DNA of 63,008 bases, counting the filler, from Globobulimina sp. (taxonomy: Eukaryota), in assembly GCA_003354225.1 (NCBI GenBank). It is 32 parts of 32 records of this genome, joined end to end, with 100 filler letters (N's around TTAATTAATTAA, not from the genome) between each part and the next. Parts side by side here need not be neighbours in the genome. Positions count along the whole stretch, not along the records: positions 23,680 to 25,551 come from PIVH01011029.1; 31 more parts are not named here. One strand, given 5' to 3'. The notes beneath the pieces are model-generated. The model searched no databases, was not told where the DNA came from, and saw only the letters and a list, made by a program, of their open reading frames with translations. Shown in pieces: positions 21,708 to 47,241 of this stretch (the first letter of the stretch is position 1; every line of letters starts with the position of its first letter). A program made the translations under genes and the position numbers.

Positions 21708-21831
21708 AGATTTTTATTGGGGCAAGGTATAAGCAAACCGTTTCTGGTGACTGATAAAGGTAAAAACAATATAGGTTTGCCTTCGTTTCTCAGAAACAAT
21801 AAAAATCTGACGCTGAAAACCGGATGCTCTT
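21708..21831 (+). mobile_element. MITE family A, copy 1 (left end cut by the contig edge)
   Basis: Near-identical reverse complement of 47095-47217. Confidence 0.85.
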
Positions 21832-22195
21832 TTATACACAAAAAACATAACACAAGAACATCTATTGCCACCCTAACAATATGAGACAATAAAAAGACTT
21901 ATACTAACTTTCATAATCATTGTCGTTCATGTTTATCAGCAACGAATCTGTTACCCTAGAACGTTTTTGACAGCCAGCAATTCATTTGTATATGGACGCA
22001 AAGTTCTAAAAGTCCTGGAATTCCTAAAAACGACAATGATTATGAAAAGAAATTGAGCGACAATGATTTTGAAAATTAGACAAACAAAGTTGTTGAAAAG
22101 GCAATTTTATAGATTCAAGTGGCTTTCGATGAGTCATGAAATGTTTTAAAAAAGTAGTCCTGCAGAGCGAGCGGGTATTGCTAAACAATCATAAT

Positions 22196-23259: not shown

Positions 23260-24085
23260 GCTGTGTAATGTGCTTGAGAAATATAGTAGAAAACCAAAAG
23301 TAAACATTTCATGCAATTATACGTTTGTTATAACTTTGCGCTGGATTTGCAAACCCAAGATAAAGTTATAACAAACACAACTGTGTAACAAATCCAAGTG
23401 GCCAAATATCAGCGATGTTGTTAACTTCGAGTAGAAATCCATATGTTGTAGCTTCCTTAATTTTTGGAAGGAAAATAGGTTAATAATAAAATGTTAATGG
23501 TTCCCGATGAAACACAACCTTTAAGAATTCAATTTTGACTTTCAATGTTTTTATTTTGAATAATCTGTAAAAAACTGTANNNNNNNNNNNNNNNNNNNNN
23601 NNNNNNNNNNNNNNNNNNNNNNNTTAATTAATTAANNNNNNNNNNNNNNNNNNNNNNNNNNNNNNNNNNNNNNNNNNNNATCATTTTGTTTATTTTGCTT
23701 TTCCAATGAATTTAATTTGATTAATTTTTTATTATATTCAAATAACAAATTTTTATATTTATACTGCAAAGCGTTGAACTTTTTGTGTAATTCAATATTT
23801 TATGAGCCGTAACCCATTGTTTTATATACTTTTTACCTTATTTATTCTTTCATTTTTTTCTATGTATAGATACATTGCAAATTTGCTATTTTGTATATTT
23901 TGTTTTGTTTATGAAAGAGTCCGCATTCGTTTTACATACTTTTTTATGATTTTTTGCTTTTATTATATGGTGTTTTTGTTATTATGTTTTTTCGTTTGTG
24001 TTTTATTTTTGTTTCACAGCAAGTTGTGAAAGACTCAAAGTTTTTTGAATTTTTATCAAGAAACTTTCAGTATTTACCTTTCACC

Positions 24086-24140
24086 TTAATTTATAAAGTG
24101 TGAATCAGTCCTTATTTGGACGAAACTAGTCACTAATTAA
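24086..24140 (+). ncRNA. Minimal type I hammerhead ribozyme-like motif (G3/C8 variant)
   Basis: agt-GTGAATCA-gtcc(ttattt)ggac-GAA-ACTAGT-C-act: 4-bp stem II, palindromic ACTAGT, stem I agt/act plus ttaatt/aattaa. Confidence 0.65.
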
Positions 24141-24361
24141 TTGACAAATTGCTTAGTATTTCGTTGAAGAGTGAATCTCGTCGCTAAATATAGATAATTC
24201 TATCCATTTAGTTCCACGTCTCCCCCTTATATCCATTCGTTGGAAGCTACCTCAACAACAACAATTTGCATCGCAAGATTGCAAATAAACTAAATCATTA
24301 CGATATCATTCATCGAACAATTTGAAGAATTAATTCAATTCATTCAATTATCATCAAAATC

Positions 24362-25551
24362 ATGTACAAAATTAAAATTAAAAACATTAAAAACAACAAC
24401 AATGATAAAAAAGAATCAAATGATGAATCAGCAAATAACACGCATGAAATTGATCGTATTCGAAACACAAATTTGAAACGTTCGCGTCGCGTATTTGCAG
24501 AAAACAATTCATTTGACAACAACAATAATCAGAATAGTCAGCAAAGTCTGGTATTGAGAAACAGTCAAAACGCGGAATTGCACGACAAAATCGATCAAAA
24601 TACGGCTATCATCGATAAATTTAATGATTTTTTAAACAAAAACGAGGATAAACCGAACAAATTAATCGATTCCAGACTCCATCCATATTTACAAATTGCT
24701 ATGAAGTTCGTATCGAAGTTTCAAAGCAAACGCATTTCAGCCATAAAATATGTGGATAAGATATCAAATGCAATTAATTCGCACACCGAAGAATTAGCAT
24801 TGAAAGGAAAGTTCGATAAATTTCCGTATTGGAACAGTTATAGAAATAACAGATTCCAACTCAGCCACCCTTTGATCCAAGAAAAATTAGATAATGTTTT
24901 GGCAAAATTAAATTTCAAACACAACAAAGAGATCTTAGAAGAGGTTGAATCTCATTTATTAGAGATAAACAAAGTGTATATGGGCGATTTAAAGGTGATT
25001 ATAGATCATGCTTTGGACGAACATCGTAAATGGTGCTGGATTCAGAGTGAGTTTAGTACTCAGAAGAAAGCACATAAATATACTTTGAACGTAGATTTAG
25101 AGAATGACGACCAACAAATTATCGATAAGCACATAAAATTAATATATGGTCGAGAATACCAATTGGATCAAAAGCGTTTATTTTTGCAAAATATCAGCAA
25201 AAACATTCAATTTCATATGCAAAAGAATAATGAAATTTATCTGCGTCCATCGATAGACCCCATTTATATGAATGCCGCAAAAGATTTGATTAGTAATCAA
25301 AAGAAAGCAAATAAAAATGTCTCATTATCTGCGAAAAACAAGAAATTTCCAAATAAAAATCGCAAAAATAAGCCATATAAAAACGCTAAAAACACCAAAA
25401 ACAACCACTCGTTTTTCACCAAAAACTTCAAATATGGCAAAAACAAAAACGTTAAAAACATTAAGAACAAAAACAAAAAGAAACAAAAGAAACATTACAG
25501 CGATTTGACGGATAAACAAAAATTTGGAAACTACAACAAGAATTTATTAGA
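24362..25551 (+). mobile_element. Putative Penelope-like retroelement ORF, N-terminal region (an RT domain would follow beyond the contig end)
   Basis: Intronless ORF with a helical domain and a very K/N-rich basic tract, 220 bp downstream of the hammerhead and a T-rich tract; no RT motif visible. Confidence 0.45.
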
Positions 25552-39455: not shown

Positions 39456-41327
39456 CACTTTTCAAACTATTCAAAAGCAAAATCATTATACTCGGAAGGA
39501 TTCACGCCTTTAATCCGCAGTAAAACAAGGCCAATTTGGACCCGCTTACCATCACAAAATGTAAATTGGTTTAAATGCAACCGACACAAAAAGAATTGCT
39601 TTACAATCTCATTCACATTCGATAGAAGCGGCGATGAATATTTTTTTGCATATTCATATGTTTATACTTATTCATATTTGCAAAAGTTTTTAGCGGATAT
39701 TGAACAATTAAATTTACCATTTGTTACGCGAGAGTTATTAGGACGCACTGTGCAACAAAGAAGAGTCGATTGCTTACGAATACAGGGTCCGGACATGGAG
39801 AATAACCCTATTATTGACAGGCCTGTCGTAGTAATTTCGGCCAGAGTCCATCCTGTTTAGTATATAATATATATTGTTTTTGCTTTGTATATATCTGTAC
39901 ATTGCACATCGGAAAAACAGGGAGAAACACCAAGTTCTTATATTATGGATGGATTAATAGAATTATTGTTAAGCTCACATGAATCAGCAATGTTTTTACG
40001 TCGCAATGTGACCATATTAATAATACCAATGTTAAATCCGGATGGTGTATTTATTGGTAATTATCGCAGTACGTCGTTAGGATTCGACTTAAACCGTCAT
40101 TGGCATCATCCAGATTTTGTGCAACATCCAACAATTTGTTCACTAAAATTATTGTTACGACAATTGGATGTTGCCAATAAATTAGATTTTTATATGGATT
40201 TGCATGCTCATACCAATGCTCTCGATAGTTTTATGTATTGTAATCCATCGGAACCAGAGTCGGAAATGCAAATTGAAGAAGAAAATGAGAAACATTGTTT
40301 ACGCAATGATTTTACCACAATATTTCCACGTTTATTAGATTTGCATTGCTCTGAATATTCATTTGCAAAGACGAAATTTTGTAATAATCCGAAGAAAGCA
40401 GGTTCTGCCCGACGTGCAATGGAAGCGATTTTATCTGATATTCCGATTTGTTATACGTTCGAAGTTTCTTTTTATAAATCGAATGAAAAGAATTCGCAAA
40501 TAATAAAACAACCGCGTTTATATTCTCAAGAAACATATAGAAATTTAGGTCGATGTATGATTCAATCTTTATCCGATTTATATAAAATACCAAAAGATAA
40601 AAGACACGATTTTAATCTTTTCAACTTTAAAACTCGAAGATTTATGAAAGGCGATTTTAGGAGAAAGTTACAAAAAACTGCTGCAGCACAGAACAAACAA
40701 AAGGAATCTGAAAATAATAAGGTTTCAATACCAACTGTGCCTTCAACCGTGCCTTCTTAACATAATATATAGTATCTATTGTGTAAATTGTTCAATTCAT
40801 TATTTAATAATTAATTAATTACAATATATAAAACTAGTTTTTAATTACTAGTAATAACATGTTTCTATATTACTGGCTTTGCAAAGCGTTTTCTCAGACA
40901 ATTGAACGAAATGTATACAACTTATTGACCAGGTGCCGTGGGGTTATCTTTTTGAAATATATCGTTCAGTTATTTTTACGCTTTTTAGTTCTGTGTTCTG
41001 TATCATGTTTACTTTGAAACGATTAATGTTTGCTGTTATTATAGTTGGTATAAGTTTATTTGTTGCTAGTGGTAATCTTGGGCAAGTGCGTCATCACCGT
41101 GACAATGAATATGATCTCACCATTCGTGGGGATACAAACAATGAGAGACACTCCGTGTGGTTTTATTTCAGGGTCAAAGGCGGCATTGCTGGCAATAAAT
41201 TAATATGCCACTTTTCAAACTATTCAAAAGCAAAATCATTATACTCGGAAGGATTCACGCCTTTAATCCGCAGTAAAACAAGGCCAATTTGGACCCGCTT
41301 ACCATCACAAAATGTAAATTGGTTTAA
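39456..41327 (+). CDS. Cytosolic carboxypeptidase (M14D, AGBL/CCP tubulin deglutamylase), circularly permuted in the contig: N-terminal part ~41060-41327, remainder 39456-40760
   Basis: SGNLGQV...EYDL.IR.D...WFYF; ARVHP|GETPSS; PMLNPDGVFIGNYR; DLNR; DLHAH; YTFE. Confidence 0.9.
41209..41327 (+). repeat. 119-bp terminal direct repeat identical to 39456-39574
   Basis: cacttttcaaactattc...gtaaattggtttaa at both ends of the contig. Confidence 0.95.
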
Positions 41328-46353: not shown

Positions 46354-47092
46354 ATTAAATTTTTTTGTATGTACTAGTAATTAAATTTTTTTTTTTATAA
46401 TAAAAACATGTCCAAATGTTGTATTACCTAATTGTATACACAAATCCCTTGACGATTATTCACCATGTTTCAGCACTCTCTTCTTTGTTCATGTTTGTAG
46501 TTTCAAATGCCATCGAATTTGATAAAAATGTAAATATCTTGATTTGTTAAAATACTTCAAAATCTTAAAAAGTACAATTTCTGCAAAAAGGTCGAAAAAA
46601 TCAATTTCTGTAAATGTCACTTTTGCCTCAAAAAGCAGATTCATCCAAAAGTCAAATTATCAAAATTAAAATTACAATCCTTATTCCAATGGAACGCGTT
46701 ACATATTTTATTCTATTTAAGTGAGAAATGTTGCGATGATAATCACAGAGCGCCACCAATTAAAAAAGCAAAATTAACGAACAAATTATAACGAAGAACC
46801 GATATAATTATTTAAGCATTGCCTGGTTAAACTATTTAGGTTCAAACCAGCTACAAACGAAGATTTATCATTTAATATTAACGCGTTTAGAAAGTGCAAT
46901 ATTCCCCGTCTTAAAAAAAAGTCATACCAACGGCCGCTACAATAATTTAATTTTATTATCGGATTTCTTGACCGATTCGTACAACACTGGCGGTGAGATA
47001 TCATTGTTATCCTTGAAAGGATTATCCACATTTTTATGAGAAGTTATATGACATAAAAATTTCGGAGTCATCCCGCAAACCTGAAATGTATG

Positions 47093-47241
47093 TAAGAGAA
47101 TCCGGTTTTCAGCGTCAGATTTTTATTGTTTCTGAGAAACGAAGGCAAACCTATATTATTTTTACCTTTATCTGTCACCAGAAACGGTTTGCTTATACCT
47201 TGCCCCAATAAAAATCTGACGCTGAAGACCGGATGCTCTTA
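47093..47241. mobile_element. MITE family A, copy 2 (~149 bp, ~36-bp TIRs)
   Basis: taagagaatccggttttcagcgtcagatttttattg ... caataaaaatctgacgctgaagaccggatgctctta (2 mismatches). Confidence 0.88.

What the first reader, a model, noticed from the sequence alone, without database searches (positions are those of the whole stretch)
24086..24140. Variant minimal hammerhead ribozyme heading a Penelope-like ORF
Seen: core GUGAAUCA / stem II GUCC-GGAC / GAA-ACUAGU-C, with predicted cleavage after C24131. Relative to CUGANGA, the C3-G8 pair is swapped to G3-C8 and there is one extra nucleotide. Known: Penelope-like elements carry minimal type I hammerheads whose palindromic loop III allows cleavage as dimers, and the 3-8 pair tolerates covariation. 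Inference: a non-canonical ribozyme that standard descriptors would miss, marking a protist PLE family.
Basis: partly seen in the sequence, partly recalled or inferred. Interest (0 to 1): 0.72.

Follow-up and report, generated by a model that had tools for sequence, protein, structure and literature searches.

The report
Altered hammerhead RNA in protist retroelements
A small motif shaped like a self-cutting 'hammerhead' RNA, with two paired core letters swapped and one added, keeps that core unchanged in every found copy of a Penelope-like jumping gene from what is likely a foraminiferan, and two related element families carry more stripped-down versions that likely keep the same pairing, so it likely cuts weakly at best and offers a direct test of what these RNAs are for.

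Summary
The motif is real and selected. All 12 family copies found keep the G3-C8 core with one extra base, stem II, the palindrome and stem I: 30/32 columns invariant, against 31/100 in the flanks; loop II varies; one compensatory stem II pair. It lies in the pseudo-LTR of a Penelope-like element: motif, ORF1, one in-frame TGA, 691-aa RT, no GIY-YIG. The closest named RTs are foraminiferan. Two other endonuclease-less families carry a more eroded motif at the same place. With the register fixed by 'palindrome plus one base', pair 3-8 reads G-C, C-G, U-A and pair 2.1-1.1 reads U-A, G-C, C-G, and the palindrome changes but stays self-complementary. This supports a hammerhead-type fold and dimer helix. 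Cleavage is not shown. Against efficient cutting: published G3-C8 and A6a variants are weak, an upstream hairpin hides the core in all 12 predicted folds, and no copy starts or ends at the cut site. ORF1 and RT meet at TGA-CA in 15/18 junctions, likely readthrough. The scan noted this motif four times before on other DNA of this genome; the cross-family covariation and the junction did not come up in my look-ups. Verdict: new variant of a known kind.

The parts
23817..24226 (+). Pseudo-LTR: the 3' UTR of the family, repeated in front of ORF1; its 5' junction to flanking DNA lies at about 23817
   Evidence: Aligns with the stretch between RT stop and C-run of full copies such as L013, from -317 relative to C17
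24080..24104 (+). Rival hairpin: TTCAC 24080-24084 pairs with GTGAA 24100-24104 and would hide G3 to the extra base
   Evidence: MFE fold; probability 0.85-1.00 in 12 of 12 copies; 5 pairs kept in 12 of 12, one A-U to G-U change
24097..24134 (+). Type I minimal hammerhead-like motif: stem I 3 bp, core GUGAAUCA (G3-C8, one extra base after A6), stem II 4 bp, GAA, palindrome, C17
   Evidence: 30 of 32 non-loop columns invariant in 12 copies, loop II 0 of 6; stem II C-G to G-C in L014
24125..24130 (+). Palindrome ACTAGT; would form stem III between two copies (dimer helix)
   Evidence: Invariant in 12 of 12; self-duplex -4.8 kcal/mol; a 1-bp monomer stem III scores +1.8 against -4.4 without it
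24131..24131 (+). C17, predicted cleavage site (GUC); untested
   Evidence: By analogy; no copy begins or ends here
24220..24226 (+). C-run about 90 nt behind C17, at or near which 6 of the 7 copies that do not go on into ORF1 stop
   Evidence: 4 contigs break in the run, L015 and L006 pass into flank there, L011 stops at +57; one more contig leaves the sequence at 24228
24362..25549 (+). ORF1 of the element (396 codons up to the contig end; N/K-rich basic C-terminal part; no Pfam family). In sister copies it runs about 35 codons further to a TGA that is in frame with the 691-aa RT
   Evidence: 95% identical over 277 aa to L013 ORF1, which goes on TGA-CAG into RT; homologous to the N-terminal part of the Nonionella stella protein P0024, E = 7e-15; Pfam none

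Best explanation
This is a hammerhead-derived RNA motif in the repeated end of an endonuclease-less Penelope-like retroelement, which likely folds with the tertiary G3-C8 pair, likely pairs with a second copy through its palindrome, and would cut after C24131 only weakly and conditionally, probably with protein help. Shown: the motif, its conservation, its position, the element layout (pseudo-LTR, ORF1, TGA-CA, RT, no GIY-YIG) and the covariation across families. Inferred: tandem-derived RNA carries two motifs, which form a 6-bp intermolecular stem III; an upstream hairpin and a G3-C17 mispair hold the single motif off until refolding; uncut RNA is what gets reverse transcribed, from the C-run about 90 nt downstream; RT is made as an ORF1-RT fusion by readthrough of UGA-CA.
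For: Family A: 12 of 12 copies keep the core while the RTs are 58-74% identical to L017 and the flanks vary (30/32 against 14/39, 6/21, 11/40). The copies reached through RT protein searches carry the intact motif too, so this is not only a search bias. Families B and C carry a related motif 252 and 224 nt behind the RT stop (A: 297). With exactly one base between palindrome and stem I, pair 3-8 is G-C (A, 12/12), C-G (B, 13/13), U-A (C, 8/8) and pair 2.1-1.1 is U-A, G-C, C-G. The palindrome is ACUAGU, GGUACC (8) or GGAUCC (5), and GGCGCU. In B the third stem I pair is kept in 12 of 13 copies with five pair types. A9, G12 and A13 are kept in all 33 copies, G10.1-C11.1 in 32 of 33. In a Penelope hammerhead, C3G/G8C partly restores cleavage and cleavage needs the element's protein (PMC11167929). 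A natural A6a insertion has low but measurable activity (PMC3088659).
Against: No cleavage data and no RNA run. G3-C8 is reported less active with C17 than with G17 (PMC3884650, 'data not shown'); the G3-C17 form is 3.5 kcal/mol more stable than the active register. The upstream hairpin takes G3 in 85-100% of the predicted monomer ensemble. Two weakening changes are combined, and no paper I read tests both. Within family A there is only one compensatory pair, and 43 of 500 shuffles reach that score. The cross-family 3-8 signal rests on two independent changes and on my choice of register. B and C lack G5, the U-G-A turn, A14 and A15.1-U16.1, which suggests that catalysis may be dispensable in this group. 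No copy ends or starts at the cut site.
Confidence: 0.5

Rival explanations
1. The motif keeps the hammerhead fold but is not catalytic; it serves as an RNA dimerisation or protein-binding scaffold that positions the C-rich 3' stretch for priming.
For: Families B and C have lost core bases that published mutational work calls essential, yet keep stems, palindrome and the 3-8 pair. Element ends map 57-97 nt behind C17, not at it. Ribozyme mutants do not affect insertion in PAc (PMC11167929). In Terminons the fold is said to expose C-rich repeats for pairing (PMC6431247).
Against: Family A keeps U4, G5, A6, G12, A13, A14, A15.1-U16.1 and a GUC triplet in 12 of 12 copies. The 3-8 pair is a feature of the active conformation, and a scaffold need not keep it.
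Confidence: 0.35
2. It is an efficient ribozyme that defines the 5' or 3' end of the element RNA.
For: All catalytic positions of family A except the swap and the insertion are canonical and invariant.
Against: 0 of 12 copies begin or end at the site; all 8 hits to the downstream product also carry the whole motif; competing folds; published rates of such variants are low.
Confidence: 0.08
3. The sequence is kept for another reason (a DNA-level promoter or protein site, or only the two hairpins), and the hammerhead reading, above all for B and C, is a resemblance.
For: Rfam finds nothing for A, B, C or D. The upstream TTCRC/GTGAA hairpin is as well kept as the motif. In B and C an upstream pyrimidine run can pair with GAGG instead. 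The RT of C is far from A and B in a quick tree.
Against: Compensatory changes in stem I, stem II and the palindrome, and Watson-Crick 3-8 in three families; the position is that of Penelope hammerheads.
Confidence: 0.07

Closest known systems
Minimal, dimer-type type I hammerheads in pseudo-LTRs of Penelope-like elements (Cervera and de la Pena 2014, PMC4209133, parts 1-2 of 4 read; Lunse et al. 2017 not held, seen only as cited in PMC6765202)
   Same: Type I layout, short stem I, G10.1-C11.1, palindromic 15.2-16.2/loop III, place in the pseudo-LTR, covariation at 3-8.
   Different: G3-C8 (they report U3-A8); an extra base after A6; no extra base between 9 and 10.1; their protist examples have a large helix III, this one has the animal-type palindrome; sister families have lost G5, the U-G-A turn, A14 and A15.1-U16.1.
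Endonuclease-deficient Penelope-like elements Athena/Terminon and Coprina (passages of PMC8557442 and PMC6431247)
   Same: Two ORFs, RT without GIY-YIG, hammerhead near the 3' end followed by a C-rich stretch, partial tandems.
   Different: ORF1 and RT are in one frame across a single TGA-CA, where the Craig et al. Fig. 1 legend names a frameshift with a pseudoknot. Copies lie next to ordinary genes (L006, L194, L083) and I saw no telomeric repeat arrays. The host is likely a foraminiferan. Clade membership was not tested against reference sequences.
PAc hammerhead of Anolis Poseidon (Frangieh et al. 2024, PMC11167929, parts 1-2 of 4 read)
   Same: A Penelope hammerhead in which the engineered C3G/G8C form cleaves partly; insertions start downstream of the uncut ribozyme.
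   Different: There G3-C8 is an engineered mutant, here it is the natural state; PAc has a GIY-YIG domain and one ORF.
Natural hammerhead core variants (Perreault et al. 2011, PMC3088659, section 8 read whole plus passages)
   Same: Natural 3-8 covariation and an A6a insertion with low activity.
   Different: That section names only U3-A8; G3-C8 and the combination with A6a are not named there (figure and supplements not seen).
Stop-codon readthrough signals, CARYYA and UGA-C (PMC4132726, passages; Candida Tca2 gag-UGA-pol seen only in a search listing)
   Same: UGA followed by CA between an upstream ORF and an RT ORF in one frame.
   Different: Only 4 of 15 junctions match CARYYA exactly; the shared context is TGA CAN NYN AAY; no convincing downstream structure; not tested.

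Membership tests
Hammerhead ribozyme (type I, minimal) | Three-way layout with stems I and II and G10.1-C11.1 | tested here: met
   12 of 12 copies; stem II C-G to G-C in one; stem I 3 bp invariant
Hammerhead ribozyme (type I, minimal) | Consensus box CUGANGA | tested here: not met
   GUGAAUCA: C3G, G8C and one extra base; no Rfam hit
Hammerhead ribozyme (type I, minimal) | Watson-Crick pair between positions 3 and 8 | tested here: met
   G-C in 12/12; C-G and U-A in families B and C in the same register
Hammerhead ribozyme (type I, minimal) | GAAA, A15.1-U16.1 and NUH site | tested here: met
   GAA-A...U-C in 12/12 of family A; not met in B and C
Hammerhead ribozyme (type I, minimal) | Palindromic stem III/loop III for dimer formation | tested here: met
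   ACUAGU invariant; GGUACC/GGAUCC swap in B keeps the palindrome
Hammerhead ribozyme (type I, minimal) | Self-cleavage after N17 | not testable with these tools
   No RNA run listed; only contigs laid
Penelope-like elements | PLE-type RT with DKG-like motif and YxDD | tested here: met
   DKKMG/DKNMG and YIDD; the clade profile hits P0073, an RT plus C-terminal GIY-YIG protein, at 4e-49 in a 5-sequence search and 5.7e-17 library-wide. Pfam RVT_1 does not hit A or B directly
Penelope-like elements | Partial tandems with pseudo-LTR carrying a hammerhead | tested here: met
   L014: RT, UTR, motif, ORF1; L017: motif, ORF1, RT, UTR; window copy: UTR, motif, ORF1
Endonuclease-containing PLEs (Penelope/Poseidon, Neptune, Nematis, Hydra, Naiad/Chlamys) | GIY-YIG domain C- or N-terminal to RT | tested here: not met
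   No Pfam GIY-YIG and no pattern match in ORF1 or RT of A and B or in 13 close relatives; the pattern hits both controls, L200 and P0073
Athena / Coprina (EN-deficient PLEs) | No endonuclease, separate ORF1 | tested here: met
Athena / Coprina (EN-deficient PLEs) | Telomeric location and reverse-complement telomeric repeats behind the hammerhead | tested here: inconclusive
   A C-run marks the 3' ends but no repeat arrays were seen; some copies lie beside genes; contigs are short and the host's telomere repeat is unknown to me
Athena / Coprina (EN-deficient PLEs) | RT falls in the Athena or Coprina clade | not tested
Programmed stop-codon readthrough | Single conserved in-frame stop with conserved 3' context between two ORFs | tested here: met
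   TGA-CA in 15 of 18 junction rows, A 8/8 and B 7/10, the 3 others truncated or frameshifted; 0 of 16 TGA stops of long window ORFs are followed by CA, and the RT ORFs use TGG for all 33 Trp
Programmed stop-codon readthrough | Fusion protein made | not testable with these tools
   Needs a reporter assay, ribosome profiling or proteomics

The most novel reading that the evidence does not exclude
Foraminiferan endonuclease-less Penelope-like elements hold a natural series of hammerheads that have rewritten the 'invariant' core. The G3-C8-plus-one form here and the 6-nt-core forms of families B and C, which lack G5, the U-G-A turn, A14 and A15.1-U16.1, all still cleave as dimers using only G12, the 3-8 pair, A9 and G10.1-C11.1: a new catalytic-core subclass that no current descriptor finds. 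It sits in elements that express RT by gag-pol-like UGA readthrough.
Probability: 0.2. Interest if true: 0.87.

Novelty: new variant of a known kind. Interest (0 to 1): 0.62.

Why it matters
What Penelope hammerheads do is open: they cut poorly in vitro, are absent from some clades, and are not needed for insertion in the one reconstituted system. Here selection has kept the fold, the dimer palindrome and the tertiary 3-8 pair in three families while the classical catalytic boxes erode step by step. A handful of 40-nt transcripts can therefore decide between 'catalysis with a rewritten core' and 'fold without catalysis'. Either result changes how such motifs are searched for, and would mean that PLEs reported to lack hammerheads may carry unrecognised ones. 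The elements also extend endonuclease-less PLEs to a likely foraminiferan host and show an ORF1-RT junction that looks like readthrough.

Tried and rejected
Rfam: no hammerhead for A or for 7 loci of A, B, C, D and L200. No RNA holder listed; laid contigs are DNA-like and show variants in loop II and flanks, none listed in the core among the rows shown (152 rows hidden). Viral pattern scan: 91 hits, none of those printed with stem II of 4 bp or more has a palindrome plus stem I; taken as chance (output of 61 partly cut). Metagenome scans: the RT alignment gave 145 candidates and 0 confirmed; the motif pattern gave 6 hits, none with the fold, so no DNA from a second species was obtained. Word-index protein search: 1 hit of 6541 candidates. 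ESM Atlas for ORF1: best score 0.81, uninformative. A perfect-looking G3-C8 hit without insertion (L254) lies in a lectin-like coding stretch and was rejected. A broad pattern for B/C gave 36 hits, 29 loci returned; of the 13 examined, 10 were chance matches, mostly in coding sequence, and 3 were cut or decayed family C copies (L234, L217, L237). TGA as Trp genome-wide: rejected, 33 TGG and 0 TGA in four RT ORFs. An intron across the stop: no conserved AG at the junction. Selenocysteine: the site is an acidic linker, not a conserved Cys, and Rfam found no SECIS in L017; no dedicated SECIS search was run. Structure downstream of the TGA: covariation term +0.25, not convincing. No structure model of the RT was obtained, so the fold-level likeness to telomerase RT is open; the PDB sequence search gave only weak group II intron RT hits. 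Family D (L081) has a further variant (CUGUGA core, GUC, GGUGCC) in 4 copies plus a decayed one, but its stem I register is unsure, so I left it out of the covariation count.

Full report
Setting. The window is a chain of about 1.87-kb contigs joined by N spacers. The finding lies in G000:C11029 (L001, window 23680-25551).

Observation. The motif is as described: AGT / GTGAATCA / GTCC-loop-GGAC / GAA / ACTAGT / C / ACT, with G3 at 24100, C8 at 24106 and C17 at 24131. Rfam has no hammerhead hit at E up to 10. The two boxes alone are rare in the window (1 hit, 0.06 expected) but near chance genome-wide (90 against 69 control hits), so the case rests on the full fold and on copies.

Copies. A DNA search of the own assembly gave 12 matches, and a 15-nt pattern with one mismatch gave the same 12 plus 2 unrelated hits. 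All 12 keep the motif: 30 of 32 non-loop columns are invariant, loop II 0 of 6, flanks 14/39, 6/21 and 11/40. The two variable columns are one stem II pair that changes C-G to G-C in L014. That single event is weak alone: 43 of 500 shuffles reach it. The RTs of the family are 58-74% identical to L017, so these are diverged subfamilies. Contigs found through RT protein searches that reach the motif also carry it intact.

Element. Full layouts are in L013, L014, L015 and L017: motif, ORF1 of about 420 aa, one in-frame TGA, a 691-aa RT with DKKMG and YIDD, about 300 nt of UTR, motif again. The window ORF (24362-25549) is ORF1: 95% identical over 277 aa to L013 ORF1 and cut by the contig end about 35 codons before the TGA; a laid contig continues with the expected codons. 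The window copy starts at about 23817, inside the UTR, so it is a pseudo-LTR plus ORF1. No GIY-YIG was found in ORF1 or RT by Pfam or by pattern, and 13 close relatives end at the same C-terminal motif; both EN+ controls match the pattern. A profile search of 1.84 billion proteins gave 31 hits at E up to 1e-30. Of 10 hits looked up, 3 carry a name, all Nonionella stella, a foraminiferan. One of them, P0024, also carries an ORF1 homologue (E = 7e-15) fused to a shortened RT. A quick tree, the careful search unfinished, puts families A and B in one clade of 13 rows (SH-aLRT 98) with a Nonionella protein as sister to A (95); C and D are distant, partial and on long branches. The host is therefore likely a foraminiferan (inference).

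Sister families. Family B (RT 24-31% identical to A) has, 252 nt behind the RT stop, NUG / CUUAGA / GUC..GAC / GA / GGUACC or GGAUCC / A / CAN: 13 complete copies in 11 of 14 loci given, the other 3 cut or rearranged. The TA/AT swap keeps the palindrome (8 and 5 copies). The third stem I pair is G-U, G-C, U-A, U-G or C-G in 12 of 13 copies and a mismatch in 1, which fixes the register. Family C has UUC / UCUUAA / GUCUG..CAGAC / GA / GGCGCU / A / GAA, 224 nt behind the stop, identical outside loop II in 8 complete copies, out of 17 loci examined. With one base between palindrome and stem I in all three families, pair 3-8 is G-C, C-G, U-A and pair 2.1-1.1 is U-A, G-C, C-G. A9, G12 and A13 are in all 33 copies and G10.1-C11.1 in 32. 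B and C lack G5, the U-G-A turn, A14 and A15.1-U16.1. This is the best support for reading the swap as a kept tertiary pair, but it amounts to two independent changes, and in A and C position 3 can also pair with 17.

Against efficient cleavage. The predicted monomer fold uses TTCAC (24080-24084) to pair with G3 through the extra base, with probability 0.85-1.00 in 12 of 12 copies; that hairpin is itself conserved. Without it, the G3-C17 form is 3.5 kcal/mol better than the active register. Kalweit and Hammann note that G3-C8 is less active with C17 (PMC3884650, passage, data not shown). Perreault et al. report low activity for a natural A6a insertion and name only U3-A8 as natural 3-8 covariation (PMC3088659, section 8). 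Frangieh et al. show that C3G/G8C partly rescues a Penelope hammerhead, that it cuts only with protein, that mutants insert normally and that no reads end at the site (PMC11167929, parts 1-2 of 4). Here, likewise, copy ends do not fall at C17: 5' ends at -317, -346, -100 and -98, and 3' ends at +57 to +97, mostly at a C-run; all 8 hits to the would-be 3' product carry the whole motif.

Mechanism. Most likely (0.5) a weak, conditional, dimer- and protein-assisted ribozyme: tandem transcripts bring two palindromes together (-4.8 kcal/mol for A, about -8.2 for B and C), rival pairings keep single copies off, and uncut RNA is copied from the C-run. The main rival (0.35) is the same fold without catalysis, as a dimer or protein scaffold exposing the C-rich stretch, as proposed for Terminons (PMC6431247, passage). 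All of these steps are inferred; only sequence, conservation and layout are shown.

ORF1-RT junction. Of 18 distinct junction rows, 15 read TGA CAN NYN AAY (A 8 of 8, B 7 of 10); the others are two truncations and one frameshifted copy that still has TGA-CAT. CA is kept although the codon switches between Gln and His, which points to selection on the bases. None of 16 TGA stops of long window ORFs is followed by CA, and TGA is not used for Trp. In B the first Met lies 43 to over 100 codons after the stop, or is absent from the open stretch; in A it is codon 7 in 7 of 8, so separate initiation remains possible there. UGA-C and CARYYA are known leaky contexts (PMC4132726, passages); 4 of 15 match CARYYA exactly. 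Readthrough is likely but untested. Craig et al. name a frameshift with pseudoknot for ORF1 of EN-deficient PLEs (PMC8557442, passages).

Novelty. Nine literature searches listed no natural G3-C8 Penelope hammerhead, no foraminiferan PLE description and no PLE readthrough. Key papers were not held (Lunse 2017, Arkhipova 2017) or not looked up (Gladyshev and Arkhipova 2007, Weinberg 2015, Przybilski and Hammann 2007), and no figures or supplements were seen, so any of these may bear on the claim. Also consulted, by passages only: PMC6765202, PMC10085705, PMC11014351, PMC6155905, PMC8495972 and the 2026 retrozyme preprint; PMC4209133 parts 1-2 of 4. Hammerhead numbering and the roles of single core bases beyond G8 and G12 are from my own knowledge. 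Earlier scan notes saw the same motif on four other pieces of this genome and G3-C8 cores in phages; look-ups for family B and for the junction returned nothing on this element.

Verdict. A real, selected, hammerhead-derived motif of an endonuclease-less Penelope-like element; a new variant of a known kind; cleavage unproven. Interest 0.62, carried by the three-family series and its cheap decisive test.

Noticed in passing
L013:1051-1053, L015:310-312, L017:1846-1848, L046:1702-1704, L052:1951-1953 and others: Single in-frame TGA followed by CA between ORF1 and RT in families A and B, 15 of 18 junctions; likely programmed readthrough.
   Followed up: yes
L032:2298-2337 (family B) and the reverse strand of L194 around 495-535 (family C): More eroded hammerhead-like motifs with 6-nt cores CUUAGA and UCUUAA, GA and GG-NN-CY palindromes, at the same place behind endonuclease-less RTs.
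   Followed up: yes
L081:1930-2012 (G000:C5911): Family D: endonuclease-less RT with a further variant (CUGUGA, stem II, GUC, GGUGCC) closed by a conserved distal stem, and a CCCCACC-rich stretch downstream; register unsure.
   Followed up: partly
L200:3-2400 (G000:C5531): An ordinary EN+ Penelope-type ORF (RT plus C-terminal GIY-YIG) with a hammerhead-like motif about 95 nt behind the stop, whose box reads CUGUUGA.
   Followed up: partly
L291:452-520, L292:466-535 (also G000:C11108, C17201): Multi-copy repeat with CUGAGGA and GAAAC boxes but no ordinary stem II between them; possibly the permuted hammerhead noted earlier by the scan.
   Followed up: no
P0024 (Nonionella stella, EukProt): ORF1-like N-terminus fused in frame to an RT that lacks its N-terminal part and the junction region; may be a deleted copy or a spliced form.
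   Followed up: partly
L048:49-100 and 1187-1240; L051; L050: Family B copies with the motif twice as a direct repeat about 1.14 kb apart, or as inverted pairs, in line with the tandem and inverted structures of PLE insertions.
   Followed up: no
window 39456-39574 and 41209-41327: Identical 119-nt stretch at both ends of one contig that holds what looks like a carboxypeptidase-type gene (label recalled, not searched); probably a tandem gene or an assembly overlap.
   Followed up: no
window 21708-21838 and 47087-47217: 131-nt repeat, 96% alike, at the edges of two different contigs.
   Followed up: no
L081:2290-2540: Tandem repeat of about 48 nt right behind the 3' end of the family D copy.
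   Followed up: no
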